DNA from: Gammaproteobacteria bacterium AqS3
Lineage (GTDB): Bacteria; Pseudomonadota; Gammaproteobacteria; MEIF01; AqS3
Direction: 5' to 3'
Length of the DNA: 64,000 nucleotides
Assembly (NCBI GenBank): GCA_001750645.1
Contig: MEIF01000001.1
Location: 9,179-73,178, forward strand
The notes beneath the pieces were generated by a model. That model was not told where the DNA came from. It was given only the letters and a program-made list of their open reading frames with translations, and ran no database searches. Within the stretch, counting starts at the first letter, position 1; each line of letters begins with the position of its first letter. Both the position numbers and the translations under genes were made by a program. Shown here in pieces: positions 2,475 through 34,905 of the stretch.

Positions 2475-2489
2475 CTGATGCGTGAAACT

Positions 2490-8641: not shown

Positions 8642-9213
8642 TTTTGTTCCAACAGCATCTTCGCAATTTCTTCAGAATTTTGATCACCAAGAAATGCATT
8701 CAGAACATCATCGGAGACACTACTCAATCTTGAACGAAACTTATCCTCAAAACCTGCATCTGAGAAAATTGGCTTGGCTTTAATTTCAGTAATAGGTAGC
8801 AAGGCATACTCAATATCTTTTGATGTATTTATATTGACACGAGCAATTTTCCGAGTCAGAGAAAAATCCTCCTCAATCTGTTCAACTTCACGCTGCCTAG
8901 ATTGATCTTTGTCTCCAGTCAAAAAGACAGAATAAACATTCCAAGCTTTATCTCCAGACATACGAAGTGCTGCACTATGCGAACTAAGTGCTTTTTGTTG
9001 TTCAAATTTCCATTTAGAAATAAGCTCTTCCGCAGATGAGAACACATAAATAAAGCCCATAATAGTTGCGCTTTCAAAACAAGTTATTGAATGTGAATTA
9101 TCAGAATACCATGACCAAGTGTCGTAACCAGAACCCCGGAGATATATTTCGGATTGTCTTGCGATATCCATTACAACTCCAACCGTTCTTGAGCTTGTTT
9201 GAAAGTTAACCAC
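8638..9213 (-). CDS. small protein of unknown function, LmuC/DdmB-like by position
   Basis: 191-aa ORF. Its stop overlaps the downstream SMC start by 4 nt (ATGA). It lies between the SIR2 and SMC genes. Confidence 0.5.
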   Translation of the reverse strand: MVNFQTSSRTVGVVMDIARQSEIYLRGSGYDTWSWYSDNSHSITCFESATIMGFIYVFSSAEELISKWKFEQQKALSSHSAALRMSGDKAWNVYSVFLTGDKDQSRQREVEQIEEDFSLTRKIARVNINTSKDIEYALLPITEIKAKPIFSDAGFEDKFRSRLSSVSDDVLNAFLGDQNSEEIAKMLLEQK

Positions 9214-10652: not shown

Positions 10653-11174
10653 CTATATATCCAATTTCAGACGAACCTTCTGAACCTTTTTAGATGCCGT
10701 ATGTTCTACTGCAATATAGATATATAGCTTGGAAATATCATGTGGTTCTAGTAATCTCCAAAAGTTTTGCTGGAACATCATCAACCGCATGAAAGTTCCC
10801 GAGGCGAGATTACATGAAAGTTCGCCTTGCACTGTATTAGATGAGAAATCTCCATCCATCAGCCAAAGTCCTAAAGCTTTTTTATGCAATGGCTTATCGA
10901 AAATCTTCATGAAATAATTTGTATATGTATAACATGACACTTTAAGAATTGTCGTGGGCAATCCACTCTTGTTAACTATGGTGATACCAAGAGCTGCAAA
11001 TATAGTTCCATCGGGTAAAGGTTCATCATTATTCCAACTTCCCATGTTTGGTCTAATTTCAATTCGCAGCCGATCTCTTTTTCTATATTCAGCATATATG
11101 TTCCAAGCAAGCGAAATAGTAGCGATAAACACCCCCACCCATGCGGCAATATCTGTATAACTAAATTCTTCCAA
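10653..11174 (-). CDS. small protein with a single N-terminal TM helix. Paralog of 18877..19395.
   Basis: MEEFSYTDIAAWVGVFIATISLAWNIY... Hydrophobic helix at residues ~8-27, then a soluble domain. Unknown family. Confidence 0.55.
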   Translation of the reverse strand: MEEFSYTDIAAWVGVFIATISLAWNIYAEYRKRDRLRIEIRPNMGSWNNDEPLPDGTIFAALGITIVNKSGLPTTILKVSCYTYTNYFMKIFDKPLHKKALGLWLMDGDFSSNTVQGELSCNLASGTFMRLMMFQQNFWRLLEPHDISKLYIYIAVEHTASKKVQKVRLKLDI

Positions 11175-11315: not shown

Positions 11316-12794
11316 CTAAGAAGTCAACTTTATTAGTCTCTTATATCGCGAGTCATCTTCGAACTGAGGCTGGACTCTTACTATCATTTCAAGACAATCT
11401 TTGAGATGCCCTTTTGATATTTGAGGAACCTTTGCATCAATAATGAGAGCTAAGAAGTCTAAAGTTTCTGCAGGCTTGATTCCACATAACTCTGACTTAT
11501 GCAACTCGTAAATCTGGTCGGAAGGCACATCCGCTGTAATAGGGACCAACCAATCGCGAAGGAGATTTAGTGCTTCGGGAAAGTTCTCATGCGCCGCAAC
11601 ACACAAACGGCCCAGACCTTCAGAAATATCAGCATGTTCATCAGGAGTCAAATTCCCCGGATTTTCTGGCCAAATTGCTTTCAAGTAGGGAGCAATCCGA
11701 TTCAACCAATAATCAGCACGCTGATCACCCGCATCTCTCAGTGTTCTCACTAACGTCTGAGTCACCTTTTGCAGACCATCCGGCGGCAGAAGGCGAGTAG
11801 CCTCGGCCAACTCGGAATTGAGGAAATTACCATCAGGGTTTAGGGCAGTGACAGTGATGAAATCAGCATATTGCCTACCGTGTGTTCCCAGAGCTTGATA
11901 ATGATTTACAGTGTCAAGAACGTTGTGCTTGATAGCCTCCATCAAAGGAGGATAAACGTAGGGGTTCAACAAGAATCCTCTCCAAATCGAGGCTGCTTCA
12001 TCTGGAAATCGATCCCAATCAAACAAAGGAAGCAGATATAAATCTGTCCATTCCTTATCCACAGTAAATAGCGCATCAGCATAGTTGGCAAGTATCACAC
12101 GACCATGGCGGTATTGTTGGATCTGTAAATCACACAACTTGGTGAATACAGGCTCAAGCTCGCTCGGTAACTTTTGACCTTCTTTGGGCGGCCACCGATA
12201 CCACCAACGAAACAGTGCTTCTGTCACATCTCCCACTGGATGATTGATAGCGCAAAAGACAGGATCTTCGCTATGTATCAAGATTTTATGTTCTATGGCA
12301 AGTATTCGCTTTACTAGTGAGAAAAAATGTGTTTCATCTTTTTCAAAGCTTTTGGCCATCAGCCATAACCACCGACTGATTTCCTCGGCAATGTCAGGCA
12401 ATTTATCGTCTGGAATACCAGCCAATAGAACAGCCATTTTGCCCCAAGATTTGTGAATGACCTCCTCCTCAGGCCAAGACTGAAAAGCTTCGTGCCAGAA
12501 CATAAGCCGCCAGTTATCTTTATCAGCCAGCTCACATAAGGCATCAGCTGTCGCATCAAAATCGTCGCGACATTTTTTCCGCCAATCTTCTCGCGCATGC
12601 GTATTGGTGACAGAATGTTTATTGAGCCAAACAATCAGTTTTTGAACTTTAACAGAATGAGATTCATCATTCTTACTTCCCTTAGAGTAACGGCGAGAGA
12701 GCTCCTCAAGCTTTCTCCTAGATTCTTCACTCAAATCTATACCTGAAGCCTTCATCTCTGACAACCTCAACCAGATTTCTCGATCCTTACTCAT
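11316..12794 (-). CDS. C-terminal half of DSR2-like protein, unit 3, helical partner domain
   Basis: Homologous to the C-terminal third of the 1242-aa fused protein and to 14979..16772. Shared blocks are INHPVGxxTEAL..WWYR, KYRHGRV.LA, LLPLF.W and YADFITV.AL. It is in the same frame as the upstream SIR2 ORF, separated by TAG + AAC. Confidence 0.7.
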   Translation of the reverse strand: MSKDREIWLRLSEMKASGIDLSEESRRKLEELSRRYSKGSKNDESHSVKVQKLIVWLNKHSVTNTHAREDWRKKCRDDFDATADALCELADKDNWRLMFWHEAFQSWPEEEVIHKSWGKMAVLLAGIPDDKLPDIAEEISRWLWLMAKSFEKDETHFFSLVKRILAIEHKILIHSEDPVFCAINHPVGDVTEALFRWWYRWPPKEGQKLPSELEPVFTKLCDLQIQQYRHGRVILANYADALFTVDKEWTDLYLLPLFDWDRFPDEAASIWRGFLLNPYVYPPLMEAIKHNVLDTVNHYQALGTHGRQYADFITVTALNPDGNFLNSELAEATRLLPPDGLQKVTQTLVRTLRDAGDQRADYWLNRIAPYLKAIWPENPGNLTPDEHADISEGLGRLCVAAHENFPEALNLLRDWLVPITADVPSDQIYELHKSELCGIKPAETLDFLALIIDAKVPQISKGHLKDCLEMIVRVQPQFEDDSRYKRLIKLTS

Positions 12795-12797
12795 GTT

Positions 12798-14915
12798 CTA
12801 CTCCTCAAACTCTGAATCGTGATTAGCCGGCCCTGCGATAATCGCCTCCTCAAGCCTCTTGAACTCATCTGGATTTAGCCTCTTCGGGAGTACCCTGAGT
12901 AACTCCAGAACTTCAGGTTCACTTTCCGAAGCCCAGAGCCATTTACCCTCCTCTTCCAAAAGCCAATCTAAAGCGATACTAGCAGGGATTGCGTCACCTT
13001 GAGCGGCAGCGAACAACGCGAGCCTTTGAAAAAGCGGGCAAGGTTCAGTCCACCAAGATATTGCCTCAGCAGTCGCCTTATATGTCGACTGCCTTTCCAA
13101 GGCTAGCCAAGCATTACGGATAGGGTCTATCAACGTCATCCAATCGTGAATATTATCATCTCGAGAATGCTCATTGATCGAAGTCTGTCGAATATATACC
13201 AATCCACTTTCTTGATTTGCGGACTCAGTTTTCTGGATAAGATTAAAAGCATTTCGTAATGAATCAGTAAATTCAGGCAGAAGTGTCGGCAACGCCGATA
13301 TCCATTGTTCTTCATTATTAAGCTCCATCAAAGAATCAGTATTTCCGCCTGCCAAAGCAACCTCCCAATAAATCAAAACTCCCTCATCCTCGGGCACTTG
13401 TCCCCTAGCCAATTTATCAAAATCGCGCAACAATATGCGCGGGTTCAGAAGTTTCCGAAGCTCTTGAAGTGAGAATTTAGTCAGCCCATCAAGCCTAAAT
13501 TCGTTACACCAGATCTGAAAAGACCGACTCCGCCCTTCACGTCTAATACTCCTTTCAATCAACCGCTCCCAAAGTTCTCGCATGAACGGATTGAAGCCGC
13601 CTTCATCCCTACTATCATTAGTCTCTCCATCAATCAGCTTATATAGATGCCTGCGAAAAAACCAAGAAAATTTCTCGCGTAATTCACTGCCATCATTGGC
13701 GAGCCATTCCAGCAGTCTTGGATCATTAAAGTGACTAGTTAACCAAGAAATCAGGGGCTTCTGCATTTCATTCGCTGTTCTTTCTTGAACTCGTGTATCG
13801 GTAACGTTCGTTAAAGACTCCTTGAATCTTCGATTTTCAGCCATGGGCTTCAACCAAGCTAAAGAGTGAGCCGGATTCGACTGTGCGAAGCATTCAGATG
13901 GTTTGCCACTAGGATCTCTTAGTACCCATAACATTAAACCGACAAAGTAGCTCTCCGGGGTGTTATTAATAGGGTCGTAATGGACATACTTTTTAACGAT
14001 ATTCACTTTACCTTGCTCTTTTTCATCATAAATTTTTGCCCACTCTTTTAGCGTCTCATGTAGGAGAGTATGTTTAGGATCGGCATAGTACAAAATAGGT
14101 GTGACATTTTTAGCATTCCATTTATCGGCTGTCTGTTCCCTTTCATCAATTTTATGATCTGCAAAAGCAAACATTTCTCTAGTCGGTTCTCCAAGCAGAC
14201 TGTCCGCAGCGAGCGCATCAGTCATGTAACGTATCACTGGATCATTAAGACTATAACCGACAAAGCAAATGATGTATCTACGAAACAACTCGCTCACAAA
14301 ACGAGCCGCCCAACGTTCTGTAAGATATGCCCGACCAAAATCTCCGCTGGAAAGCACCAAGGAATCCAGATCGTCCTCTGTAGGCTCTTGCATCAAAAGG
14401 CCATGCAAATAAACCAGTCCATCCCATCCCTCTTTAGGCACAGGTAATAATGGTGCTTGAAAAGTCTTGGACAGCATCGAACTATCATCATTCATTACCG
14501 TTTCAAATAGACGGTCAAAGTTGGTAGTAACCAAGCGCATGCGGGATTTCTTTTTTGGCTGCTCCCGCGTCTTACTGAGTTTTAACAGTGAATTGTGAGT
14601 TGCAGTCGCATCTGGACAATTAAGTTTGGGCTTCAAAATATCAGGCAGTATGTCTCGCACTTTCTTGCGCCCAAAACGCTGGTTTTTCTCCAACAAATGA
14701 ATGGCACTATCAAATCGCTCCTTATCTATTTCCGATTGTGGCAAAGGGTCATTTGCATCTGAAAACTGATTTACAAGCTGCTGTGCCAAGCAAGCAAAAT
14801 CAGGTAACTTAGCTGAGCGGGATATTCCAGCACCGCAGAAGAACACCACATTGCCCTTCTCATGCTCATCCAATAGATGCTCAGGAATGTCAGGGCCGTT
14901 TTCAGTAAATTGCAT
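12798..14915 (-). CDS. DSR2-like SIR2 (NADase-type) domain protein, N-terminal half of unit 3
   Basis: N-terminal motifs VVFFCGAGIS..LP.F, LVTTNFDRLFE and LVYLHGLL, the SIR2_2 pattern seen in DSR2/ThsA. The C-terminus ends ...ALDWLL..WLW..LLRVL..IIAGP, which is part of the shared linker region. Confidence 0.8.
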   Translation of the reverse strand: MQFTENGPDIPEHLLDEHEKGNVVFFCGAGISRSAKLPDFACLAQQLVNQFSDANDPLPQSEIDKERFDSAIHLLEKNQRFGRKKVRDILPDILKPKLNCPDATATHNSLLKLSKTREQPKKKSRMRLVTTNFDRLFETVMNDDSSMLSKTFQAPLLPVPKEGWDGLVYLHGLLMQEPTEDDLDSLVLSSGDFGRAYLTERWAARFVSELFRRYIICFVGYSLNDPVIRYMTDALAADSLLGEPTREMFAFADHKIDEREQTADKWNAKNVTPILYYADPKHTLLHETLKEWAKIYDEKEQGKVNIVKKYVHYDPINNTPESYFVGLMLWVLRDPSGKPSECFAQSNPAHSLAWLKPMAENRRFKESLTNVTDTRVQERTANEMQKPLISWLTSHFNDPRLLEWLANDGSELREKFSWFFRRHLYKLIDGETNDSRDEGGFNPFMRELWERLIERSIRREGRSRSFQIWCNEFRLDGLTKFSLQELRKLLNPRILLRDFDKLARGQVPEDEGVLIYWEVALAGGNTDSLMELNNEEQWISALPTLLPEFTDSLRNAFNLIQKTESANQESGLVYIRQTSINEHSRDDNIHDWMTLIDPIRNAWLALERQSTYKATAEAISWWTEPCPLFQRLALFAAAQGDAIPASIALDWLLEEEGKWLWASESEPEVLELLRVLPKRLNPDEFKRLEEAIIAGPANHDSEFEE

Positions 14916-14978
14916 TTGAACTTATGGAATCAGGATGTGACTACAAAATAACCGGACAATATTACAGCAAGCCATATC

Positions 14979-16772
14979 TTAACCACCACCATGTTGGCGA
15001 GCCAAAGTATTCAATCTCACATATTGAGGATGCTTTTTAAGATGCGGTGCTTCATCCCGTATCGCATCAAGACAGCTCCTAAGTTGATCTACCGGTAAAT
15101 ACGGTATCTCGTTCTTGACAATCAAATCCAAAAACTCCAGTGCCTTGTCCGGATGATTTTTACAGAGGCCAGAATCATTAAGGGCATCGATTTGGTAGGA
15201 ATGGTCGGTTCTAATTGCACCCAACCAAGACCGAAGAAGATCGAATGCTTCTGGAAAGTTCTCTTCTGCCGCGATACATAAACGGCCTAGGTTTTCAGAG
15301 ATTTCAGGATCAACTCCCTGATTATCCTGTGGCCATATATCCTGTATGTAGGGAACAATTCGATTCTGCCAACAATCCCTCCGCTGCTCTCGCGAACCTT
15401 CAAGCACTTCCCATAATGTTTGAGCCGACCTACTTAAACCTTCTTTTGGAAGTTTTTTAATAGCCTTTGCCAGCTCTTTCTTTGTGAATGTTTCGCCCGC
15501 ATCAAGAGCAAGGAAAGTAAGGAAATCAGCATACTGACTACTGTGATCGCCCAAATCACCATAATGGTCTGGTTCTGCTGTATCAAGAAAATCGGCTTTG
15601 AGAGCATCCATCAGAGGAAGATATAAGCGGGGTGTCCAAAGAAAACTCCTCCAAGCCAAGTAAGCTTCTTGCGAAGATTTCCAGCTGAATAAGGGCAACA
15701 AATTTTCATGCGTCCACTTAGGATCAACCCTGAATATCGTGATGACATTGTCAGCTAGGAACACACGGCTATGACGATATTTTTTAATTTCGATGTTACA
15801 TAACTCAGTAAATATTGATCTAACTTTTTCATCTAATCCAAGATTATCTCTAAGTGATTGGCGATACCACCAGAATATTAATGCTTCGGTTGCATGCCCA
15901 ATTGGGTGGTTAATAGCTTCTCCGACAGGATCTTTTCTATGCTCATCATCTTCATTGTCAAAGTTAACAATCTCAACATTAGCTGCTTTTACGTTCTCAT
16001 GATCCGAACTGAGAATTCGTTCCACAAGCTCGAAAAAATATTCTTCTTGCCCATCAAGCACTTTGGCAATGTCCCGCAACCATAAACTAACATAACGAAC
16101 AAGATCTGGGAATACATCCTCTGGAACTTTAACTAAAGTCCAAGCCAACTTCTCCCAAGATTCTTGGAAACGCTTTTCTTCCGACCAAGCCCGCAGGGCG
16201 TCTCGCCAGCGCACAGAGCACCAATGATTCTCTTTAGCTAGTGCACACAAAGCATCAGAGGTCAAAGCGAAATTGTCCCGGCAACGCTGCCGCCAGTCAT
16301 CTCGCTGTAGGCCATCCGTGCCAGGGTTCTGTTTGAGCCACTTAATGAGTTCAGGGAGCGTGCTCGGTGTGGTGGTAAATTCAGTTGCCTCGTCACCTTC
16401 ACTCACCCGGAAAGAAAATTCGTCTCTTTGATCCTCTGACAGCTCCCACTCTGGATGCTGACTAGAAATATCTTTCAGCTGATCTTTAGCAATTTCACTC
16501 AAATCTGCTCCTGCTTCCTCCATTTTTGCCAGACGAAACCAAATGTTCATGTCTCTATATCTGCGCCAGTACTCAGGGTCAATACCCTCTCCATAAAGGG
16601 CGCGGGGCGGGCCTGCAAGAATGGCTTGTTCTAGCTCAGCCAGCAAGTCTTGTTCAAGTTTCGGTGCGAGTGACACCAGCAAACGCATAACTTCTCGCTT
16701 GGTTTCAGGGACCCAAAGCCATCGGTGCTCACTATCCAAGAGCCAGCCCAATGCACGACGATTAGAAATCAT
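14979..16772 (-). CDS. C-terminal half of DSR2-like protein, unit 2
   Basis: Start chosen at MISNRR, where the ATG overlaps the upstream TGA as ATGA at 16769-16772. The track's longer ORF is an N-terminal extension. The protein begins with the linker block RALGWLL..HRWLW..VMRLLVSL..ILAGP and continues through the same conserved blocks as unit 3 and the fused protein. Confidence 0.7.
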   Translation of the reverse strand: MISNRRALGWLLDSEHRWLWVPETKREVMRLLVSLAPKLEQDLLAELEQAILAGPPRALYGEGIDPEYWRRYRDMNIWFRLAKMEEAGADLSEIAKDQLKDISSQHPEWELSEDQRDEFSFRVSEGDEATEFTTTPSTLPELIKWLKQNPGTDGLQRDDWRQRCRDNFALTSDALCALAKENHWCSVRWRDALRAWSEEKRFQESWEKLAWTLVKVPEDVFPDLVRYVSLWLRDIAKVLDGQEEYFFELVERILSSDHENVKAANVEIVNFDNEDDEHRKDPVGEAINHPIGHATEALIFWWYRQSLRDNLGLDEKVRSIFTELCNIEIKKYRHSRVFLADNVITIFRVDPKWTHENLLPLFSWKSSQEAYLAWRSFLWTPRLYLPLMDALKADFLDTAEPDHYGDLGDHSSQYADFLTFLALDAGETFTKKELAKAIKKLPKEGLSRSAQTLWEVLEGSREQRRDCWQNRIVPYIQDIWPQDNQGVDPEISENLGRLCIAAEENFPEAFDLLRSWLGAIRTDHSYQIDALNDSGLCKNHPDKALEFLDLIVKNEIPYLPVDQLRSCLDAIRDEAPHLKKHPQYVRLNTLARQHGGG

Positions 16773-18706
16773 GAGCTTTCTGCCAAAGCTAAAAATACAA
16801 GCCTGCGAAATATTGGGTAACGAATACCCCACCAACGCTCCACCTCCATGGCTGCTTGCTCAGGGGATTCTTCTTTCAGAGCAATCCACGCATCCCAGGT
16901 CAGATCAATTAATGCAGTCCAATCATGAAAAGCTCTGTTTTGGGAATGCCTGCTAATGGATGGTTGATAGATATAGGACATGTCATTCATATCATCAGCC
17001 GCTTCAAGCCCCCTCATAAGATCAAGCACCGAACGCAACAAACTAGTAAATTCGGGCAGAAGTTCCGGCAGTGCTTTCTGCCACTGAGGATCATTAGAAA
17101 GTCTTTTGACAGCATCATGGACATTACCCGCTGATAATTTAATCTCCCAATTAACTAGGTCGTTGATGTGTTGAGGTTTTTCACCATCAGCATTCTCGAT
17201 CGAACCGCGGAATGGCTCGCTTAACGATATATATGGGGTCAGATTTTTTCTAAGTTCTCGACGCGAGGTCGGAGTGAACCCATATCGCTTGAATCGATCA
17301 TGCCAAAGATACATATCAAAGTTGCGTGCTCCGGGCTTAACACATCCTGTCATCAAGAGGCACCAAAGTTTCCACATTAATCGACTGGGAATACCATTGG
17401 GAGAATTTTGACGAATACGCCTCAATTCATCAATTTTACGCTTGTTTTTCAGCTCAGACAACTCGTTCAATCTATCTTCGATTAATCTCACAAATCTATC
17501 ATCCAATCTGTCACCGTACTGAGAAAGCCAAAGTAATAATCGCGGATCATTAAGATGACGTGTCAACCAGGGCATCAATTGTCGTGTCACATCGTCCCAA
17601 TTACCTCTTTGAACACCTGTTTCAAAGATATTGGTCAGGGGGCTTAGGTACAGCCAATCTAAAAATGGTGCCGAGTTATGCTCAGAAAAGCGTTTGGCAG
17701 GCAGGCCGGTAGGATCCTTCAAAGCCCATAACATCCGAGCAATAAAGTTATCCTCTTGAGTGCTCTCTCTGGGTTTTGTGCGAGCAAGTTCAATGACGAT
17801 CTGTTCCTTGCCTCTCACTCCATCACGATAAGTTTCAGCCCACCGCAATAAGGTCTTATGCAAGTAAGTGTGGCCACTATTTTCAAGGTACAAAATAGGT
17901 CTAACACTCTTTGCCTCCCATTCATGTCGAGACTGCTCTTCTTCATTTTCTGCATGGCTGCCAAAGGCAAAGACCTCTCTTGACATATTTTCAGGCGAAC
18001 GATCAGCGGCAAGTGCATCCATCATATAACGCAGCATTGGATCGCCAATGCTATACCCAACAAAACATACGGTGTAATTGCGAAACAATTCACTTAGAAA
18101 ACGTGCCGCCCAGCCATCTCTAAGATATGCCCTTCCAAAATCACCACTTGAAACAATTAAATCTCCCTGATTATCCCTGGGCCATTGTCCCGTCAAAAGA
18201 CCATGCAGATAGACCAATCCATCCCACTGATCATCTTTTGGAATGGGTAGCAGCGGTGCCTGAAAACGGTCGACTTTCAGTAATCTCTCGGCAATTGCTT
18301 TTTCAAATAGACGATCAAAGTTAGTCGTGACTAAATGCATAGAATTGCTGCGCGTCTTACCCAGTGTCAATAGAGCTTCGTGTGTGTCAGTGGGAGCATC
18401 AAGGCGTACCTTCAAAATATTGGCAAGTCCTTTTCTAATGGTTTTGGAACCGCCAGCTATATATTTTTCCATCAGATTAATAGCAATATCTAATTGACTA
18501 TCACAAATCGCCCTATTAATGGTGTCCCTGATTTGAGGATCAACCCTATCTGAAAAATTGTCATATAGCTTCCTTACCAACCCATCAAAACCCGGCAATC
18601 CAGCTGGATAGGAAATTCCAGCACCGCAGAAGAACACCACTCGACCATCCTCGTGTGCTTGTAACAAGGATTCTGGAATATCGGGGCCGTTGGGGATAAA
18701 TTGCAT
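16769..18706 (-). CDS. DSR2-like SIR2 domain protein, N-terminal half of unit 2
   Basis: MQFIPNGPDIPESLL, VVFFCGAGISYPAGLPGF, LVTTNFDRLFE, LVYLHGLL. Ends FRRLVFLALAESS, just before the linker block. Confidence 0.8.
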   Translation of the reverse strand: MQFIPNGPDIPESLLQAHEDGRVVFFCGAGISYPAGLPGFDGLVRKLYDNFSDRVDPQIRDTINRAICDSQLDIAINLMEKYIAGGSKTIRKGLANILKVRLDAPTDTHEALLTLGKTRSNSMHLVTTNFDRLFEKAIAERLLKVDRFQAPLLPIPKDDQWDGLVYLHGLLTGQWPRDNQGDLIVSSGDFGRAYLRDGWAARFLSELFRNYTVCFVGYSIGDPMLRYMMDALAADRSPENMSREVFAFGSHAENEEEQSRHEWEAKSVRPILYLENSGHTYLHKTLLRWAETYRDGVRGKEQIVIELARTKPRESTQEDNFIARMLWALKDPTGLPAKRFSEHNSAPFLDWLYLSPLTNIFETGVQRGNWDDVTRQLMPWLTRHLNDPRLLLWLSQYGDRLDDRFVRLIEDRLNELSELKNKRKIDELRRIRQNSPNGIPSRLMWKLWCLLMTGCVKPGARNFDMYLWHDRFKRYGFTPTSRRELRKNLTPYISLSEPFRGSIENADGEKPQHINDLVNWEIKLSAGNVHDAVKRLSNDPQWQKALPELLPEFTSLLRSVLDLMRGLEAADDMNDMSYIYQPSISRHSQNRAFHDWTALIDLTWDAWIALKEESPEQAAMEVERWWGIRYPIFRRLVFLALAESS

Positions 18707-18876
18707 CTGAATCTAAGAAAATGAAATAGAACCCTACATTTGACAACAAATCTCTTGCAGGCTGTCTATATGTGCTACAGACGAACAGGCAATTCTACAC
18801 CCACTATTTGGCAATTCTCCATAGCACTTAAAACCTTTATTGACCTAAGTAATAGGATCACGCAAAAAACAGAAGG

Positions 18877-19395
18877 TCAATTTCCCTTCTTATTAGCCTG
18901 AAATTCCTTATCCAACTCAAGAATGGCCTTCAAATTTAAGCGACAAATTTTTGGTGTTTTAGATAGCTCATGCCAAGCATAAACATACAACAAGTTTTCA
19001 CCATATTGCTCTACAGATTTAAGTATAGGTTCAATCTCCACTACATTTTCCCATATATCACTGGATTCCAAAGCATGCGGCAACTTGAAATATTCACGCG
19101 GAACAAGATTTCCCTGTACTGGGCTATTAATAATCTTTGCCCATCTATTCTTATACATCAGAAAATCCAAACGAGTTAGGTTAGTGCGCGAATATCCTCT
19201 ATTGCTTATAGACATGATAAGAAAAGGCGGTCGACGGGGCAGAATTCCTTCGTCGAAATAGCCTTTTTCTAGCTTCACATTAATATTTAGCTTAGGTTTA
19301 TTTGAGTGCTCTCAATAAACATTCCAGAAAAAAGTAAATAATCCGACAATTGCACCAACCCATGCTGCATATTCTGTATAGCTAAATTCTTTCAT
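18877..19395 (-). pseudogene. paralog of the N-terminal-TM small protein (10653..11174), carrying an in-frame TGA at 19312-19314
   Basis: MKEFSYTEYAAWVGAIVGLFTFFWNVY, then TGA, then the same frame continues to 18877. The N-terminus aligns with MEEFSYTDIAAWVGVFIATISLAWNIY. Total length is 173 codons, against 174 for the intact paralog. Confidence 0.55.
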
Positions 19396-20002
19396 CTTGC
19401 CCTCCATTATCAACTTGGTTAACCAAGCTCCCCTCCTCTCCTTCAGAGCATAAAGCTAGACACTCTTCGCGATTTTTGATCATATATTTCCAGATATCAT
19501 CTTCAAATGTATATGGCATCGTTGACAAACTGCCTGACCGCGTTGACACTATCTTTTTATCCACTAAGCCCATTACAGTTGCATTTCTAGAATTTCTATA
19601 GAATGTTTGATCCTTATTATTTAGACATTCCCATAAAATTTCTTTCTCTGGCACATTTAAATACTGGAGTTTCTTGATCTTATCGCCTAATAATTTTTGT
19701 TTCTCCTTAGATTCCTTTCGTCTTTGAAGAATATATTTCAAAATTCCTTTGGGCCCTAAAATACACATCCACACCAATGCAACTAAACTAAATAAACAAG
19801 ATAAAAAAATTATAGATTTTGTAAGAACAAGCCAAGTTTCAATATCAATAGATGTAGAAAGTCCATGCACGTCAATAAGTGCAACAACCTTATCCCAACA
19901 AACAAGAATAACTAAAGTACCCAGAGAAATAGTGCAAGCGGTAGGCTTCCCCCCATCACGCAGCAATGTTGAGAAAGCTGAAATTTCTGATATCACTGAC
20001 AT
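19382..20002 (-). CDS. hypothetical 2-TM membrane protein
   Basis: 206-aa ORF with two hydrophobic helices at ~25-45 and ~60-85 and a Lys-rich charged segment. It lies directly downstream of the fused DSR2-like gene. Confidence 0.45.
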   Translation of the reverse strand: MSVISEISAFSTLLRDGGKPTACTISLGTLVILVCWDKVVALIDVHGLSTSIDIETWLVLTKSIIFLSCLFSLVALVWMCILGPKGILKYILQRRKESKEKQKLLGDKIKKLQYLNVPEKEILWECLNNKDQTFYRNSRNATVMGLVDKKIVSTRSGSLSTMPYTFEDDIWKYMIKNREECLALCSEGEEGSLVNQVDNGGQDERI

Positions 20003-20050
20003 TCCCTAGCCCGCCCTTAACCATTGGGAGAAAATTTTCTGAATCATTTT

Positions 20051-23000
20051 TTAGCTGCCCTTTCGCTCTCGAACAAAATTCATCAGCTTTTCATATTGAT
20101 CGTTCTCTTTAACAAGTCTAGGTGCCTCTGTTCGTATGACCTTAAGACAAGTTTCAAGTTCATCCTCTGAGATCCAAAGGGTTTCATTTCCGATGACACG
20201 GTTCAAAAAATCTAGTGTTTTATCTGGATAGGTTTTACACCAATCTGATTGACTAAGAATATGAACCAAGAAAAAAGGATCTGATAATGTCTGAAGGAAT
20301 GGACTAATAAAATCAAAAATCTCCGGAAACAACTCTTTATCTACCATGCACAAGCGACCAAGACTTTCGGAAACTCCATCTAAAATATTCCCATTCTGTT
20401 TGGGAAAAATATTTTGCAAATAAGGTTTGATTTGATTTTCCCAACAGTCTTTTATTTCAACTTCCGGAGATTGCAGTGTTCTCTCTAATGCTTGAACCGC
20501 TCTTTGCAAACCTTCTGACGACAGTTTGCTAGTCACCTCTTTCAACTCTTCGTTATTGAATGTGCCATCCGGGTGGAGTGCAATAACAGTGATGAAATCA
20601 GCGTATTGGCCACTATGTTCGCCGAGCTTGTGGTAATGATTCACAGTGTCAAGAACATCGTGTTTGATTGAGCTCATTAAAGGAGGATATACGTAAGGAG
20701 ACCCCAAGAATCCTCTCCAAACGCAAGCCGCCTCGTCAGGAGATTTATCCCAGCTAAATAACGGTGACAGATGCTGGGCCGCCCAATCTGGATCCACGCC
20801 AAATAAAGTGCCCGCATAGTCGGCCAGCACCACACGGCCATGACGATATTTTTCTACATCTGTATTGCTGCATAACTCAGTGAAAATTGGCTTGATTTTC
20901 TCAGGTAATCCTTGATTGGGTTTGAGCGCCTGTCGATACCACCAACGTATCAGTGCCTCAGTAACACAGCCTACGGGATGATTTATGGCATCCAGGACAG
21001 GATCTCTGTCTATTTCCTCATCAAACCCAAGTTCTTCAGCGGTAAAATGCTTAACTCTTGGATCATCTTTGTCCTTTAGATTAAGGATTCGGTTTACAAG
21101 AGTGAAAAAATACTCCTCGTGCTCTTTAAAAGTTTTTGCAGTGGCCTCTAACCATCGAGCAACTTCAGTAGAGGTATCTTGAAGCACTTCTTCTGGGACA
21201 TTAATCAAAATCGGTGCCAGTTTGTTCCAAGATTTGTAAAGAAGTTCTCCCTCCGACCAAACCTGCAAGGCTTTATTCCAGCGTCTAGACGACCAATTAT
21301 TTTCTCCAGCCAACATGGATAGCAAATCAGATGCCGTATCAAACTCGTCACGACAATATTGCTCCCAATTGTCTTGTTTCCAAGGATTGGTGTCAGGGTT
21401 CTGCCTGAGGTATTCGATCAACTTCAAGCTGTTGCGAGGCATCTCAACTTGTTCAGGCTTCTGCGCTCCTTCACTGGTCCAGATAGGAAACTCATCACTC
21501 TCATCTTCCTGTAACTCCCATTCTGGATGATCAGCTTCAAGATTATCCAGCCGCTCTCTAGCTTGTTCACCTAAAACAACACCTGCATCAGCAATCTTTG
21601 CCAGTCTGAGCCAAATAGCCCCATCTTTGATCAGCTCGCGATGCTCAGGCTCAATATCATTCTGAAGCATGGCATCAGGCAAGCCGGCAAGAATCACGCT
21701 CTCCAGCTTCTCCAATCCTTCCGGCATCTCTTCTTGAAGCTTGGGAGTAAGTACCCTCAATAAACGCATGACTTCTCGTTTGGCATCAGACCCCCAAAGC
21801 CATCTGTATTCATCTGCCAAGAGCCAGTCCAATGCCAGATGGTTAGGTATTACCTCGTCTTGCGCTGCAGCGAAAAAGGCGAGCCTGCGAAACAATGGAT
21901 AAGGTATGTCCCACCAAGATTTCGCTTCCCTAGCGGCATGCTCAAGTGATTCCTCTGATGTCTCCTTCAAAGCGAGCCAGGCATCACGGACCAGATCAAT
22001 CAACACCGTCCAATCGTAGTAATTTTTGTTCTGGGGATGTCTACTGATCGAGGGCTGATATATGTAGGACAGATCTCGTTCACTATTTGCCCCCTCAAGT
22101 TCTTCCATAAGTTCGAGAGTATCTCTCAGTAGATTAGTAAATTCTGGCAAGAGTTCAGTGAGCTCAGATTTCCACAACTCATACTCACTAAGTTCTTTGA
22201 TGTATGAATGAACTTTGCCAACAGACAAGGTAATTTCCCAATTAACCAAATCTTTGATGCACTCAGGTTCACGCCCTTTATCATCAACCGTCCGATATGA
22301 CGGTTCACGCAGCAGTATACACGGCGACAGATTCTCACGAAGTTCCCGACGTAAAGTTAACGTAAGTCCATCCTGCTTGAATCGTTCACACCAGTGATGC
22401 ATGCGATACATATCACGATGGCCGGTCTTGGATTTGACATTTCCAGCAAGTAGCAGACGCCAAAGTTTCTGCATTGGCAAGTCCAGAATCCCATTGGGTA
22501 AATTTTCACGAATGTTTTTTAGCTTCGCTGCGTCACCATTACCTTCAAATCCGACCAGTACATCCAGACGGTTTTCAATTAGCCTGGTAATCTCATCATA
22601 TAGCGGCCCGTCGCGCTGAGAGAACCAAATCAGCAGTTTGGGATCATTAAGATAACGCATTAACCGGAGCCCCAGTTGCGGCATTACTTTTTTCCAATTA
22701 TTTCCCTGAGAACCTGCGTCTGCAATCTTTATCAAAAGTGGCAGCTGATCAAAAGAATCAATGGAATCAAGCTCATCAAAGCTCTCGGCGGGCAGATCTC
22801 TAGAATCACTTAATGCCCATAGCATTCGATCAACAACGGTATCTTCTTTGACACTTTCCAAGGGAGGAATTCTTACAGATGCGACGACAACCTGCTCCTT
22901 ACCCTGCACACCATCACTATACGCTTGTGCCCAGATTTTTAACGTTTCATGCAAACATTCATGCTCAGCATCTTCGCAATACAAAATAGGTTGAACGCCT

Positions 23001-23779
23001 TTAATGCCCCACTCATTTTCGACCTTTTCTTTCCCATCGCTTTTATAGCCTCCAAATGCATATATCGACGGCGATGTGCCTTTAATATCTAAAGAATCTA
23101 TAACATAACCTAGCACCCTATCACCAACGCTATGTCCTACAAAACAGATTACATATTTCTTGAATAATTCACGCAAAAAACTTGTTGCCCAATTATCATC
23201 ACCCATATATGCAAAACTAAAATCACGACTTGACAAAATCAGACGATCCAGTTCTGTAGCTATGGGTATATTACTTAAAAGGCCATGAATATAAATCAGT
23301 CCATTCCATCGATTTTTTAGAGAAGGCAGCAAAGGAGGCTGAAAACGTTCAACAGATAACGCCCCCTTATCAATTGCTCTTTCAAACAGACGGTCATAAT
23401 TGGTGGTGATCAAGCGCGTGCAATTATCTCGATTCCTACCAAGCGTAAGCAGTGCCTCGTGAGTTGCTATCTCATTCTGCATATCAGGTTTGGGGGTCAG
23501 AATATTTGGAAGCTCTCGTCTCACCATCTCTCGACCATTGAATGTATTTTTCTCCAGCAAGTGAATGGCCTTATCAAAATCACCAGCTTCTATTGCCAAT
23601 CTGGGCGCTGGATCATTAGGATCTTCAAATTTGGCCAAGAGCTGTTTCGCTAGACATTCATAGCCCGGCAAGCCTGCTTGGAAAGAAATCCCAGCACCGC
23701 AAATAAACACCACACGCCCATCCTCATGAGCTTGCAACAGATGCTCAGGAATATCAGGGCCGTTCGGGACAAATTTCAT
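20051..23779 (-). CDS. DSR2-like defense sirtuin, full-length fused form (SIR2 N-domain + long helical C-domain), unit 1
   Basis: 1242 aa. N-terminal MKFVPNGPDIPEHLL, VVFICGAGISFQAGLPGY, LITTNYDRLFE, LIYIHGLL. The middle carries the linker block LALDWLLADEYRWLW..VMRLLRVL..ILAGLP. The C-terminal blocks are INHPVGCVTEALIRWWYR, KYRHGRVVLADYA and YADFITVIALHPDG. It is collinear with the sum of the two split units. Confidence 0.8.
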   Translation of the reverse strand: MKFVPNGPDIPEHLLQAHEDGRVVFICGAGISFQAGLPGYECLAKQLLAKFEDPNDPAPRLAIEAGDFDKAIHLLEKNTFNGREMVRRELPNILTPKPDMQNEIATHEALLTLGRNRDNCTRLITTNYDRLFERAIDKGALSVERFQPPLLPSLKNRWNGLIYIHGLLSNIPIATELDRLILSSRDFSFAYMGDDNWATSFLRELFKKYVICFVGHSVGDRVLGYVIDSLDIKGTSPSIYAFGGYKSDGKEKVENEWGIKGVQPILYCEDAEHECLHETLKIWAQAYSDGVQGKEQVVVASVRIPPLESVKEDTVVDRMLWALSDSRDLPAESFDELDSIDSFDQLPLLIKIADAGSQGNNWKKVMPQLGLRLMRYLNDPKLLIWFSQRDGPLYDEITRLIENRLDVLVGFEGNGDAAKLKNIRENLPNGILDLPMQKLWRLLLAGNVKSKTGHRDMYRMHHWCERFKQDGLTLTLRRELRENLSPCILLREPSYRTVDDKGREPECIKDLVNWEITLSVGKVHSYIKELSEYELWKSELTELLPEFTNLLRDTLELMEELEGANSERDLSYIYQPSISRHPQNKNYYDWTVLIDLVRDAWLALKETSEESLEHAAREAKSWWDIPYPLFRRLAFFAAAQDEVIPNHLALDWLLADEYRWLWGSDAKREVMRLLRVLTPKLQEEMPEGLEKLESVILAGLPDAMLQNDIEPEHRELIKDGAIWLRLAKIADAGVVLGEQARERLDNLEADHPEWELQEDESDEFPIWTSEGAQKPEQVEMPRNSLKLIEYLRQNPDTNPWKQDNWEQYCRDEFDTASDLLSMLAGENNWSSRRWNKALQVWSEGELLYKSWNKLAPILINVPEEVLQDTSTEVARWLEATAKTFKEHEEYFFTLVNRILNLKDKDDPRVKHFTAEELGFDEEIDRDPVLDAINHPVGCVTEALIRWWYRQALKPNQGLPEKIKPIFTELCSNTDVEKYRHGRVVLADYAGTLFGVDPDWAAQHLSPLFSWDKSPDEAACVWRGFLGSPYVYPPLMSSIKHDVLDTVNHYHKLGEHSGQYADFITVIALHPDGTFNNEELKEVTSKLSSEGLQRAVQALERTLQSPEVEIKDCWENQIKPYLQNIFPKQNGNILDGVSESLGRLCMVDKELFPEIFDFISPFLQTLSDPFFLVHILSQSDWCKTYPDKTLDFLNRVIGNETLWISEDELETCLKVIRTEAPRLVKENDQYEKLMNFVRERKGS

Positions 23780-26800: not shown

Positions 26801-26908
26801 ATCAATGCGATACGAGATGCCATCATTGCGCGGCTGGCCGATAAAACAATCGACAACTGCCCCAACAGCAGCCGTCTGATAAGCCTGTTCTTTGAACTTC
26901 AGTTTCAT
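23849..26908 (-). CDS. res: Type III restriction endonuclease Res subunit (helicase-nuclease)
   Basis: Helicase motif [16 protein letters not shown] and motif [12 protein letters not shown]. Start taken at MKLKFKEQ (ATG 26906-26908) with AAGGA 7 nt upstream. The track's earlier start is an extension. The gene lies 10 nt downstream of mod1. Confidence 0.85.
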
Positions 26909-26918
26909 ATCAACATCC

Positions 26919-28833: not shown

Positions 28834-28875
28834 GGTAACACTCCCAATCGTCCCTCCCGTCTGATACCAAAGTAC

Positions 28876-34786: not shown

Positions 34787-34890
34787 ACAATAAATGATTC
34801 AGCCATTCCCCAGGCGATGAATTCCCGGCATTCTGCCCGCCGGCGAGCTGCGGCCACTCTCCCAGCCAGATCGGTTTTCGCACCTTCTTA

Positions 34891-34900
34891 CCCCCCCCCC
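34891..34900. repeat. homopolymeric tract C10, intergenic between convergent 3' ends
   Basis: Read directly: ...cttctta cccccccccc tcaccc... Confidence 0.85.
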
Positions 34901-34905
34901 TCACC

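What the first reader, a model, noticed from the sequence alone, without database searches (positions are those of the whole stretch)
11316..23779. Three tandem DSR2-like SIR2 defense paralogs: one fused, two split at different positions
Three co-directional paralogous units share an N-terminal SIR2_2-type domain (FFCGAGIS, TTNFDRLFE, YLHGLL, the same pattern as DSR2/ThsA) and a long C-terminal helical domain (INHPVG..TEAL..WWYR, KYRHGRV, YADFITV). Unit 1 is a single 1242-aa protein. Unit 2 is 645 + 597 aa, which sums to exactly 1242. Unit 3 is 705 + 492 aa. The fission points differ: unit 2 breaks before the linker block ALDWLL..WLW..LLRVL..ILAGP, unit 3 breaks after it. Three diverged copies suggest functional diversification of a sensor. 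I am not aware of a naturally split DSR2 or a DSR2 triplet array having been described.
Basis: partly seen in the sequence, partly recalled or inferred. Interest (0 to 1): 0.85.

Follow-up and report, generated by a model that had tools for sequence, protein, structure and literature searches.

The report
Three tandem Dsr1 sirtuin defence genes
A sponge-symbiont genome island carries three diverged copies of the known anti-phage NAD-destroying protein Dsr1 (not DSR2). Two copies are each cut in two by a single small mutation, which looks more like recent decay of spare copies than a newly evolved two-part system.

Summary
On the minus strand there are three co-directional paralogs, 43-49% identical. 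One is intact at 1242 aa, one is 645+597 aa and one is 705+492 aa. The family assignment is wrong: all three are Dsr1, not DSR2 (PADLOC Dsr1 E=0; NCBIfam NF041818). Dsr1 has an N-terminal SIR2 NADase and a roughly 950-aa alpha-solenoid sensor that, in E. coli Dsr1, is triggered by phage major capsid protein.

The two "fissions" are single lesions. Unit 2 has a 1-nt deletion at an A-run, giving an ATGA stop/start overlap. Unit 3 has an in-frame TAG, then AAC, then ATG. Both cut inside the sensor, not between effector and sensor.

The low-GC defence island holds two more broken genes, a third Type III mod paralog and a small membrane-protein paralog. All four lesions lie in genes that have paralogs. 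About 6% of 187 comparison Dsr1 loci are also interrupted, some with an adjacent start codon.

For a working two-chain form: both breaks sit at loop or helix edges, both have an ATG at the cut, and one unrelated metagenomic homolog is split in the same loop as unit 3.

A four-copy intact Dsr1 array exists in another sponge symbiont. My verdict is Dsr1 paralog array with probable recent pseudogenisation (about 0.55). A functional split remains open (about 0.3).

The parts
20051..23779 (-). Unit 1: uninterrupted Dsr1 paralog, 1242 aa (SIR2 about 1-300, alpha-solenoid sensor about 301-1242)
   Evidence: PADLOC Dsr1 PDLC02183 gives E=0 and 1138 bits. NCBIfam NF041818 gives 1359.5 bits against a cut-off of 1400. 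Pfam SIR2_2 gives 64.7 bits. It is 100% identical to P0001, 'SIR2 family protein [Gammaproteobacteria bacterium AqS3]'. The AF2 model of residues 301-1242 is all-helical with pLDDT 79.9. It deviates at 49 of 240 family sites that are >=97% conserved, 28 of them in SIR2, which is the most of the three units.
16769..18706 (-). Unit 2 N-part, 645 aa: SIR2 plus the first third of the sensor
   Evidence: SIR2_2 gives 88.7 bits. It matches Dsr1 profile positions 1-680 and scores 885 bits on NF041818.
14979..16772 (-). Unit 2 C-part, 597 aa from the ATG at 16772: the rest of the sensor
   Evidence: It matches Dsr1 profile positions 672-1259 and scores 663 bits on NF041818. It has no Pfam hit.
16769..16780 (-). 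Unit 2 lesion: a -1 frame change at gAAAgctcATGa, with TGA stop overlapping the ATG (ATGA)
   Evidence: The sequence is. Against unit 1 and the family, exactly one base is missing between ..LALAE and MISNRRALGWLL. Met is outside the five commonest residues at this column in 145 homologs, which together account for 135 (V81 I23 C14 L12 A5). In the unit 1 model the position falls in a loop between helices H328-339 and H346-353.
12798..14915 (-). Unit 3 N-part, 705 aa: SIR2 plus the first part of the sensor
   Evidence: SIR2_2 gives 82 bits. It matches Dsr1 profile positions 1-739 and scores 765 bits on NF041818.
11316..12794 (-). Unit 3 C-part, 492 aa: the distal sensor
   Evidence: It matches Dsr1 profile positions 753-1254 and scores 480 bits on NF041818. 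It lacks a conserved block (E763, F764, W767, P781 in unit 1 numbering).
12792..12806 (-). Unit 3 lesion: GAGGAG TAG AAC ATG, an in-frame amber codon followed by an in-frame ATG, with a Shine-Dalgarno-like GAGGAG 6 nt upstream
   Evidence: The sequence is. Homologs read through this stretch (KDDIEPERW..). In the unit 1 model the position is at the N-terminal end of helix H411-431, just after loop 399-410.
19382..20002 (-). SieB-like membrane protein (206 aa) between units 1 and 2
   Evidence: Pfam PF14163 SieB gives E=5e-7. There is no PADLOC or NCBIfam hit.
18877..19395 (-). Small membrane-protein paralog interrupted by an in-frame TGA (19314..19312) after 28 codons
   Evidence: Translation reads MKEFSYTEYAAWVGAIVGLFTFFWNVY*EHS... 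tblastn of the 173-aa protein against this stretch gives E=6e-13 across the stop.
10653..11174 (-). Intact 173-aa small membrane protein downstream of unit 3, paralog of the broken one
   Evidence: No family hit was found.

Best explanation
The region is a tandem array of three old, strongly diverged paralogs of the single-gene anti-phage system Dsr1. It lies in a foreign low-GC defence island next to guaA, in the genome of the sponge symbiont AqS3.

The mechanism of each unit is inferred from the family, not shown here. The N-terminal SIR2 domain is an NADase kept inactive by the long C-terminal alpha-solenoid sensor. Binding of a phage structural protein (the major capsid protein for E. coli Dsr1) would release the NADase. 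NAD+ then falls and phage replication stops. Three diverged sensors would widen the range of phages recognised.

Only unit 1 is a complete gene. Unit 2 carries a 1-nt deletion in a short A-run, and unit 3 carries a nonsense (amber) codon. Both lesions lie inside the sensor.

The most likely reading is that these are young inactivating or crippling mutations in redundant copies. This fits a wider pattern of decay in this island that affects only genes with paralogs. Because each cut is followed at once by an ATG, the downstream halves may still be translated, so residual or two-chain activity cannot be excluded.
For: Family assignment:
- PADLOC Dsr1 gives E=0 for unit 1, and both halves of units 2 and 3 match collinearly. 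NCBIfam Dsr1 NF041818 also matches.
- There are 1581 homologs. The best 120 are all about 1250-1270 aa single chains, many named Dsr1.
- The catalytic GAGIS, N127, D129 and H165 are invariant in all three units.

Mechanism from the literature:
- NAD+ depletion by DSR1 is reported in 10.1101/2021.12.14.472415.
- The Dsr1 sensor is the Avs7-type bilobed sensor, and the major capsid protein is the trigger (PMC13581612).

Nature of the lesions.

Evidence for decay:
- The third Type III mod paralog is frameshifted.
- A small membrane-protein paralog has an in-frame TGA.
- All four lesions are in genes with paralogs. IetA, the ORF at 3..2489, the LmuB-like ORF and its two adjacent ORFs (8638..9213, 9171..10550), the SieB-like gene and Res are uninterrupted ORFs.
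- In 187 comparison Dsr1 loci, 12 carry frameshifts or nonsense codons. Among the 10 breaks in the 159 genome and metagenome loci, 2 have a start codon directly after the stop, one of them inside the SIR2 domain.
- Unit 3 has lost a conserved block just after its cut.
- All three units deviate at 27-49 of 240 near-invariant family sites, against 9-13 in five single-copy homologs checked.
- Both cuts bisect the sensor rather than separating effector from sensor.

Evidence the lesions are young: each half is otherwise an open frame of 492-705 codons. Long-term dN/dS is about 0.15-0.26 where computable, in SIR2, C-part and whole-gene comparisons, but for the middle part only in u1-u3 because the other two pairs were saturated.
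Against: - Both cuts are followed immediately by an in-frame ATG. Unit 2 has an ATGA overlap and unit 3 has TAG-AAC-ATG with GAGGAG 6 nt upstream. Met is not among the commonest residues at either column in 145 homologs. The chance of an ATG within two codons of a random codon is about 3% in these genes.
- Both cuts lie within about 70 residues of each other, at a loop and a helix start.
- An unrelated homolog (L188, 38-42% identical to the units) has an in-frame TAG, AGGAGG and ATG within the same five alignment columns as unit 3.
- The interrupted units keep a more canonical SIR2 domain than the intact unit 1 (13 and 8 deviations against 28). There is therefore no sign of decay beyond the single lesion.
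- No expression or population data could be examined.
Confidence: 0.55

Rival explanations
1. Units 2 and 3 are working two-gene versions of Dsr1. The N-part (SIR2 plus proximal sensor) and the C-part (distal sensor) are translated from one mRNA by coupling or re-initiation. They associate non-covalently, or are brought together when the two sensor lobes clamp the phage capsid protein.
For: - An ATG sits exactly at both cuts. Unit 2 has the classic ATGA overlap and unit 3 has GAGGAG 6 nt before the ATG.
- Met is outside the commonest residues listed for both columns.
- The cuts fall at a loop and a helix N-terminus of an alpha-solenoid, and no sequence is lost in unit 2.
- L188 is independently split in the same loop as unit 3, with a perfect AGGAGG and an ATG.
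- P0200, a solitary C-part starting at HMM position 754, occurs as the identical protein in two assemblies.
- The N-parts of units 2 and 3 keep a well-conserved SIR2 domain.
- In SeAvs7 the two sensor lobes move about 30 A and clamp the capsid protein. Ligand-bridged assembly is therefore conceivable (inference).
- The Nature 2026 methods mention 'split proteins' among Avs7-sensor proteins.
Against: - L188 is the only clean analogue among nine contexts inspected. The others are low-coverage long-read error contigs, or fragments cut by IS elements or an integrase.
- Short Dsr1 proteins in the databases start anywhere from HMM position 330 to 900 and cluster at conserved Met or GTG codons, which marks them as gene-caller artefacts.
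- None of the 187 systematically sampled loci is cut at HMM positions 640-760.
- A stop followed by a start also occurs by chance in 2 of 10 control breaks, one of them inside SIR2.
- The SD-like strings derive from ancestral Glu, Lys and Asp codons.
- Two other genes in the island are plainly broken.
- Unit 3 lacks a conserved block next to the cut.
Confidence: 0.3
2. The interruptions are not in the living genome. They are consensus, assembly or strain-mixture artefacts of a metagenome-assembled genome, and all three genes are really intact.
For: - The source is a MAG of a low-abundance symbiont, with about 0.9% of uniquely mapping RNA reads.
- The unit 2 lesion is a 1-nt change in a homopolymer.
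- Low-coverage long-read contigs show many such false frameshifts in Dsr1 genes, including one at the same site.
Against: - The improved AqS3 assembly uses short-read Illumina data plus chromatin-contact data, where indel and substitution errors are rare.
- Two of the four lesions are base substitutions that create stop codons.
- The housekeeping genes in the window that were checked (guaA, guaB, exonuclease I) give full-length matches to their domain models.
Confidence: 0.08
3. One reading: the units are DSR2-like proteins (tail-tube sensing SIR2 defence) that have undergone adaptive gene fission.
For: They share the SIR2_2 domain and a long helical C-terminal region.
Against: - No Dsr2 model appears among the PADLOC hits at E<=0.01, while Dsr1 models match end to end.
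- The NCBIfam Dsr1 equivalog model matches.
- There is no sequence match to the solved DSR2 structures in the PDB at E<=0.01.
- The length is about 1240-1260 aa, as in Dsr1.
Confidence: 0.01

Closest known systems
Dsr1 (defence-associated sirtuin 1; Gao et al. 2020; Garb et al. 2022; NCBIfam NF041818; PADLOC Dsr1)
   Same: The units have the same N-terminal SIR2_2 domain, with GAGIS, TTN(F/Y)DRLF and YxHGLL. They have the same roughly 950-aa helical C-terminal region, collinear over the whole profile. Unit 1 has the same length class (1242 against about 1260 aa). They sit in a defence island.
   Different: - The units are only 43-55% identical to any homolog in the aligned locus set.
- Unit 1 scores just under the NCBIfam equivalog cut-off, 1359.5 against 1400.
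- There are three tandem copies instead of one.
- Two copies are interrupted inside the sensor.
- There is an excess of changes at near-invariant sites.
Four-copy Dsr1 array in a Ca. Porisulfidus sponge-symbiont MAG (OZ244118.1, locus L052)
   Same: It has co-directional tandem Dsr1 paralogs in a sponge-associated gammaproteobacterium, interleaved with other defence-type genes. Its copies also show raised substitution at conserved sites.
   Different: - In L052, three copies are complete and uninterrupted, and the fourth is uninterrupted as far as the locus extends (HMM 1-1066).
- They are 63-73% identical to each other and form their own clade, so this is an independent and younger expansion.
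- The interspersed genes are DUF6161 and Schlafen/AlbA_2 proteins, not SieB-like or small membrane proteins.
Avs7 (STAND NTPase with the same bilobed sensor; SeAvs7 cryo-EM, Nature 2026, PMC13581612)
   Same: According to that paper, the Dsr1 C-terminal region is homologous to the Avs7 sensor. That sensor clamps the phage major capsid protein between an N-lobe and a C-lobe, and its C-lobe autoinhibits the effector. The AF2 model here is likewise one long alpha-solenoid.
   Different: There is no STAND NTPase module here and the effector is SIR2. Foldseek against the PDB returned only generic HEAT/ARM solenoids with TM about 0.2.
DSR2 (Bacillus subtilis; tail-tube sensing SIR2 NADase)
   Same: The general logic is the same: an N-terminal SIR2 NADase plus a C-terminal helical sensor of a phage structural protein, encoded by a single gene.
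   Different: It is a different family. There is no Dsr2 profile hit and no sequence match to the solved DSR2 chains. DSR2 is shorter, at about 1000 aa (general knowledge, not measured here), and its trigger is the tail tube protein.

Membership tests
Dsr1 | N-terminal SIR2_2 domain with the NAD-binding GAGIS motif and the catalytic Asn and His | tested here: met
   Pfam PF13289 is found in all three units, with E from 1e-17 to 5e-25. G28-S32, N127, D129 and H165 are invariant across the units and 13 homologs.
Dsr1 | End-to-end collinear match to curated Dsr1 profiles | tested here: met
   PADLOC PDLC02183 matches unit 1 at E=0. Unit 2 matches at E of 4e-222 and 9e-167, and unit 3 at 2e-181 and 1e-120. 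Together the pieces cover profile positions 1-1273.
Dsr1 | Score above the NCBIfam equivalog cut-off (NF041818, 1400 bits) | tested here: inconclusive
   Unit 1 scores 1359.5 bits, just below the cut-off. The unit 2 halves score 885+663 and the unit 3 halves 765+480. These are divergent members, which explains why NCBI names unit 1 only 'SIR2 family protein'.
Dsr1 | Single polypeptide of about 1250 aa | tested here: not met
   This is met by unit 1 (1242 aa) only. Units 2 and 3 are each interrupted once. All of the best 120 homologs are single chains.
Dsr1 | Long alpha-helical (Avs7-type, bilobed) C-terminal sensor | tested here: inconclusive
   The AF2 model of unit 1 residues 301-1242 is an all-alpha solenoid with pLDDT 79.9 and pTM 0.53. 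The lobes and the homology to Avs7 could not be checked. PDB matches are generic solenoids.
Dsr1 | Phage-triggered NAD+ depletion and phage resistance | not testable with these tools
   This is known for B. subtilis-expressed DSR1 and E. coli Dsr1.
DSR2 | Match to Dsr2 profiles or to solved DSR2 sequences | tested here: not met
   No Dsr2 model appears among the PADLOC hits at E<=0.01 for any of the five ORFs. There is no PDB sequence hit at E<=0.01.
Thoeris ThsA | SIR2 domain fused to a SLOG/STALD signal-binding domain | tested here: not met
   There are only weak ThsA hits, restricted to the SIR2 part (E from 4e-10 to 9e-4). The C-terminal region is Dsr1-type.

The most novel reading that the evidence does not exclude
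Dsr1 can work as two separately translated chains cut inside its capsid sensor. Units 2 and 3, and independently the metagenomic locus L188, would be naturally split versions. The SIR2-plus-proximal-sensor chain and the distal-sensor chain would be made by translational coupling and brought together, possibly by the phage capsid protein itself. The array would then hold three functional sensors of different specificity.
Probability: 0.3. Interest if true: 0.55.

Novelty: new member of a known kind. Interest (0 to 1): 0.3.

Why it matters
As it stands, this is a correctly re-filed example of a known single-gene defence system. It adds two modest points.

First, Dsr1 can expand into tandem paralog arrays. 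Only two arrays were found among 188 loci, and both are in sponge symbionts. This fits the idea that sensors of conserved phage proteins diversify by duplication.

Second, such arrays shed copies by single lesions. If the split copies proved active, they would show that an Avs7-type bilobed sensor tolerates being cut between helices. That would offer a natural two-chain design for studying how the distal sensor part restrains the SIR2 NADase. This needs experiments.

Tried and rejected
1. Exact-sequence look-ups of unit 1 and of the unit 2 N-part found nothing on record. The source was identified instead through the homolog search.

2. dN/dS among the paralogs was computed, but synonymous sites are saturated. 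It only shows long-term constraint.

3. I searched for recurrent natural splits.
- The 187 loci from genome, metagenome and viral collections had no cut at HMM positions 640-760.
- The representative and word-index protein searches returned many C-terminal-only proteins. These start anywhere from HMM position 330 to 900, at conserved Met or GTG codons, so they are truncation artefacts.
- Three contexts that seemed to repeat the unit 2 cut (L190, L195, L196) are low-coverage long-read contigs. In L195 and L196 a G-homopolymer explains the shift. I rejected these as support.

4. Programmed -1 frameshifting at unit 2 has no X XXY YYZ slippery heptamer at the junction, judged by eye from the sequence. 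I rejected it.

5. Stop-codon reassignment was rejected. The in-frame stops in the island are of different kinds (TAG and TGA) and the host genes use the standard code.

6. Foldseek of the sensor model against the PDB gave only generic HEAT/ARM solenoids.

7. There is no tRNA gene anywhere in the 64-kb window, so none marks an island border, and no long flanking direct repeats were found. Promoter and terminator scans were at or below shuffle expectation.

8. No gene-conversion tracts were found between the units.
Full report
**What is there**

On the minus strand of the window lie five long ORFs that make up three co-directional units.
- Unit 1 is 20051..23779 (1242 aa).
- Unit 2 is 16769..18706 (645 aa) followed by 14979..16772 (597 aa from its ATG).
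- Unit 3 is 12798..14915 (705 aa) followed by 11316..12794 (492 aa).

A five-way alignment shows that the two pieces of units 2 and 3 are collinear with unit 1. The units are 43-49% identical in protein. The best 40-codon nucleotide windows reach only 72-78% identity. The units are therefore old paralogs, not assembly duplicates.

**Which family**

Pfam finds SIR2_2 (PF13289) in all three N-parts and nothing in the C-parts.

The defence-system profiles settle the family. PADLOC Dsr1 (PDLC02183, 1275 positions) matches unit 1 at E=0, and matches the pieces of units 2 and 3 end to end. No Dsr2 model appears, and ThsA, LmuA and generic SIR2 models hit only weakly on the SIR2 part.

The NCBIfam Dsr1 equivalog model NF041818 gives 1359.5 bits for unit 1, just under its 1400-bit cut-off. 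It gives 885+663 bits for unit 2 and 765+480 bits for unit 3.

A database search returns 1581 homologs. The best 120 are all single chains of about 1250-1270 aa, many named 'anti-phage defense-associated sirtuin Dsr1'. Unit 1 itself is on record as 'SIR2 family protein [Gammaproteobacteria bacterium AqS3]', a metagenome-assembled genome of a symbiont of the sponge Amphimedon queenslandica.

GAGIS, N127, D129 and H165 are invariant in all three units. There is no sequence relative in the PDB. So these are Dsr1 family members, not DSR2.

**How Dsr1 works (from the literature)**

DSR1 lowers NAD+ during infection. In the tested case the drop was transient and the culture did not collapse (bioRxiv 10.1101/2021.12.14.472415).

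The long C-terminal region of Dsr1 is homologous to the bilobed TPR sensor of Avs7. The phage major capsid protein is the trigger of E. coli Dsr1, and defence needs the N-terminal effector (PMC12803255 and PMC13581612).

In the solved SeAvs7 structures, the two sensor lobes clamp a capsid monomer and move about 30 A relative to each other. The C-lobe holds the effector in an autoinhibited state.

My AF2 model of unit 1 residues 301-1242 is one long alpha-solenoid, with pLDDT 79.9 and pTM 0.53. It matches only generic HEAT/ARM solenoids in the PDB.

By inference, each unit here is a capsid-type sensor coupled to an NADase, and three diverged sensors would widen recognition.

**The nature of the two 'fissions'**

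Unit 2 is a frame change. The junction reads gca gAA Agc tcA TGA on the coding strand. The TGA of the N-part (16771..16769) overlaps the ATG of the C-part (16772..16770). Against unit 1 and 145 homologs, exactly one base is missing between ..LALAE and MISNRRALGWLL. A fourth A in the A-run would restore AEKLMISN...

Unit 3 is an in-frame amber codon..GAG TTT GAG GAG TAG AAC ATG AGT.., with TAG at 12800..12798 and ATG at 12794..12792.

On the Dsr1 HMM the cuts lie at about position 680 and about 741-753. They are well inside the roughly 950-aa sensor, not between effector and sensor. In the unit 1 model they correspond to a loop between helices (model residues 340-345) and to the first turn of helix 411-431 after loop 399-410.

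The equality 645+597 = 1242 is a coincidence, because units 1 and 2 differ by several indels.

**Context**

The units sit in a roughly 30-kb low-GC island (about 39-47% GC from 8 to 34 kb). It lies between a 49-59% GC stretch on the left and 63-70% GC host DNA that begins with guaA, guaB and an exonuclease I gene.

The island is packed with defence genes:
- IetA, plus a long ORF running off the window end.
- A Lamassu-like trio: a LmuB-type ATPase, a small middle protein and a SIR2 protein.
- The three Dsr1 units.
- A SieB-like protein.
- A Type III restriction enzyme with three tandem mod methylase paralogs.

Two more genes in the island are broken.
- The third mod paralog (26919..28833) is split between two frames.
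- A paralog of the 173-aa small membrane protein (10653..11174) lies at 18877..19395 and has an in-frame TGA after 28 codons (tblastn E=6e-13 across the stop).

All four lesions lie in genes that have paralogs in the island. The single-copy defence genes are uninterrupted. This pattern is expected from relaxed selection on redundant copies, although the numbers are small.

**Comparison set**

I collected 187 other Dsr1 loci: 79 from species-representative genomes, 80 from metagenomes and 28 from viral contigs. I mapped all six-frame ORFs onto a Dsr1 HMM.

Twelve loci (6%) carry frameshifts or in-frame stops. In the 159 genome and metagenome loci these are at HMM positions 89, 194, 241, 351/386, 498, 590, 617, 832 and 992. 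One viral locus is frameshifted at about 456-459 and another is shattered into four pieces. None is cut between positions 640 and 760.

Two close relatives (L157, L158) each carry a different CAA-to-TAA change, which marks them as plain pseudogenes.

Two of the ten breaks in the genome and metagenome loci have a start codon directly after the stop. L022 has TAA-ATG inside the SIR2 domain, and L134 has TAG-GTG. A 'stop followed by start' is therefore not rare by chance.

Only one other locus is a tandem array. L052, from a Ca. Porisulfidus sponge-symbiont MAG, has four co-directional Dsr1 copies. Three are complete and the fourth is open as far as the locus extends (HMM 1-1066). They are 63-73% identical to each other and form their own clade. 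They are interleaved with DUF6161 and Schlafen/AlbA_2 genes. A Dsr1 array is thus rare but not unique, and both examples come from sponge symbionts.

**Divergence and selection**

In a neighbour-joining tree the three units group together on long branches.

At 240 alignment sites that are at least 97% conserved in 69 other homologs, unit 1 deviates at 49 (28 of them in SIR2), unit 2 at 27 and unit 3 at 40. Five single-copy homologs checked for comparison deviate at 9-13, and three of the L052 copies at 16-29.

Arrayed copies therefore evolve faster. The only uninterrupted copy here has the most altered SIR2 domain. Unit 3 has lost a conserved block (E763, F764, W767, P781) just after its cut. 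That block lies in a low-confidence loop of the model.

Nei-Gojobori estimates are saturated at synonymous sites (pS 0.67-0.80), with dN of 0.38-0.57. The ratio is about 0.15-0.26 wherever dS could be computed. That covers the SIR2, C-part and whole-gene comparisons. For the middle part it was computable only for u1-u3 (0.25), because the u1-u2 and u2-u3 pairs were saturated. Most of the divergence occurred under purifying selection, so the lesions are much younger than the paralogs. This test cannot tell recent decay from continued function.

**Evidence that keeps the functional-split reading alive**

- Both cuts are followed at once by an in-frame ATG. Unit 2 has the ATGA overlap typical of translational coupling, and unit 3 has GAGGAG 6 nt upstream of the ATG.
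- At the unit 2 cut, Met is outside the five commonest residues at that column in 145 homologs (V81 I23 C14 L12 A5, 135 in all). At the unit 3 cut the aligned column is mostly I and L, although the alignment there is ambiguous.
- In these genes the chance of an ATG within two codons of a random codon is about 3%, or 11-13% for any of ATG, GTG or TTG.
- A search of 1.8 billion cluster representatives with the unit 2 C-part led to one clean analogue, L188, a 2.5-kb short-read contig. It reads ..AILAGQPHNML TAG GAG GAC ATC ATG SEQLNEIADKQIWLKL.., with an in-frame TAG, a perfect AGGAGG 5 nt before the ATG, and both within the same five alignment columns (KDDIE) as the unit 3 cut.
- L188 is only 38-42% identical to the units and about 50% identical to the main clade, so its cut is independent.
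- A solitary C-part starting at HMM position 754 (P0200) occurs as the identical protein in two assemblies.

**Why I do not give these points more weight**

- The many other short Dsr1 proteins in the databases start anywhere from HMM position 330 to 900. They cluster at conserved Met or GTG codons, which marks them as truncated gene calls.
- Of nine contexts inspected, five are low-coverage (1.7-5.9x) long-read contigs with shattered or frameshifted genes. Two of these repeat the unit 2 site only because of a shared G-homopolymer.
- Two more of the nine are fragments next to IS elements or an integrase.
- I found L188 by looking specifically at proteins that begin near the unit 3 cut, so one such case among more than a hundred fragments is not a strong statistic.
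- The SD-like strings in unit 3 and L188 largely derive from ancestral Glu, Lys and Asp codons.

**Artefact check**

The improved AqS3 assembly is Illumina plus chromatin-contact data (bioRxiv 10.64898/2026.08.05.743132). The housekeeping genes in the window that I checked (guaA, guaB, exonuclease I) give full-length matches to their domain models. Two of the four lesions are substitutions that create stops. Artefact is therefore unlikely, but only the reads can exclude it.

**Verdict**

The finding is a real and correctly described gene arrangement that was filed under the wrong family. It is a triplet of diverged Dsr1 paralogs in a horizontally acquired defence island of a sponge symbiont.

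- The best-supported explanation (about 0.55) is that the two 'split' copies carry young single lesions of the kind that also hit two other redundant genes nearby. This is early pseudogenisation of spare copies, with unit 1 the only complete gene.
- A working two-chain Dsr1 (about 0.3) is not excluded. It is the interesting alternative because of the clean restart signals and the independent L188 case.
- Artefact is about 0.08.

Novelty is that of new, divergent members of a known kind, and interest is moderate to low unless experiments show that the split forms are active.

Noticed in passing
window 26919-32558 (minus strand): There are three tandem Type III mod methylase paralogs with a period of about 1.95-1.99 kb and 67-77% nucleotide identity, upstream of a single Res gene (23849..26974). 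The third copy (26919..28833) is split between two reading frames. The island thus repeats the 'triplet with a broken copy' pattern seen for Dsr1.
   Followed up: partly
window 18877-19395 and 10653-11174 (minus strand): This is a pair of small paralogous proteins with an N-terminal hydrophobic helix (MxEFSYT..AAWVG..WN.Y) and no family hit. One follows unit 3 and is intact (173 aa). The other follows unit 1 and the SieB-like gene and has an in-frame TGA at 19314..19312. They may be accessory genes duplicated along with the Dsr1 units.
   Followed up: partly
window 19382-20002 (minus strand): A 206-aa membrane protein with a Pfam SieB (superinfection exclusion protein B) match at E=5e-7 is wedged between Dsr1 units 1 and 2.
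   Followed up: no
window 6575-10550 (minus strand): A Lamassu-like three-gene set lies directly downstream of the array. It comprises a SIR2_2 protein (9171..10550, 459 aa), a small protein with a weak ABC-3C MComp1 match (8638..9213) and a LmuB-type SMC/ABC ATPase (6575..8641). It is a second, unrelated SIR2 effector in the same island.
   Followed up: partly
window 3-3497 (minus strand): IetA (2490..3497; PADLOC E=2e-76) is followed by a long open frame of at least 829 codons (3..2489) that runs off the window end. It is presumably the IetS partner, but I did not check this.
   Followed up: no
window 5918-6472 (plus strand): An ORF matches only the C-terminal end of 4-hydroxy-2-oxovalerate aldolase (HMGL-like positions 181-257 of 260, plus the DmpG communication domain). 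It is a truncated gene remnant at the left GC transition of the island.
   Followed up: no
window 1-64000 (GC profile): There is a sharp compositional break, about 39-47% GC from 8 to 34 kb against 63-70% GC from 36 kb onwards, next to guaA. There is no tRNA or integrase in the window. This indicates either recent horizontal acquisition or, since the source is a MAG, a possible chimeric join that I could not exclude.
   Followed up: partly
window 34658-34734: A 21-nt unit (ATAGACAAACAGAAGGCGCAG) is repeated three or more times in tandem inside the ORF 34650..35147. On the listed (plus) strand the unit reads as seven codons, IDKQKAQ. The ORF itself is on the minus strand, so its peptide repeat is the reverse-complement reading, which I did not work out.
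   Followed up: no
L052 2581-23134 (Ca. Porisulfidus sp. MAG, OZ244118.1): This locus has four tandem Dsr1 paralogs, 63-73% identical to each other, with the fourth running off the locus. They are interleaved with two DUF6161 proteins and a Schlafen/AlbA_2 plus HATPase_c_4 protein. It is the only other Dsr1 array among the 187 comparison loci, and it also comes from a sponge symbiont.
   Followed up: partly
L188 19-2385 (Logan SRR33616140 contig): This is an independent Dsr1 homolog with an in-frame TAG, a perfect AGGAGG and an ATG three codons later, in the same loop as the unit 3 cut. The contig starts inside the gene, so the N-part cannot be judged.
   Followed up: partly
window 20051-23779, residues 1-300 of unit 1: The only uninterrupted Dsr1 copy has the most altered SIR2 domain. 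It shows 28 changes at 111 near-invariant sites, including G185R, G188S, Y216H and R224G. It also has the lowest SIR2_2 score, 64.7 bits against 82-89. Whether its NADase is active is unclear.
   Followed up: partly
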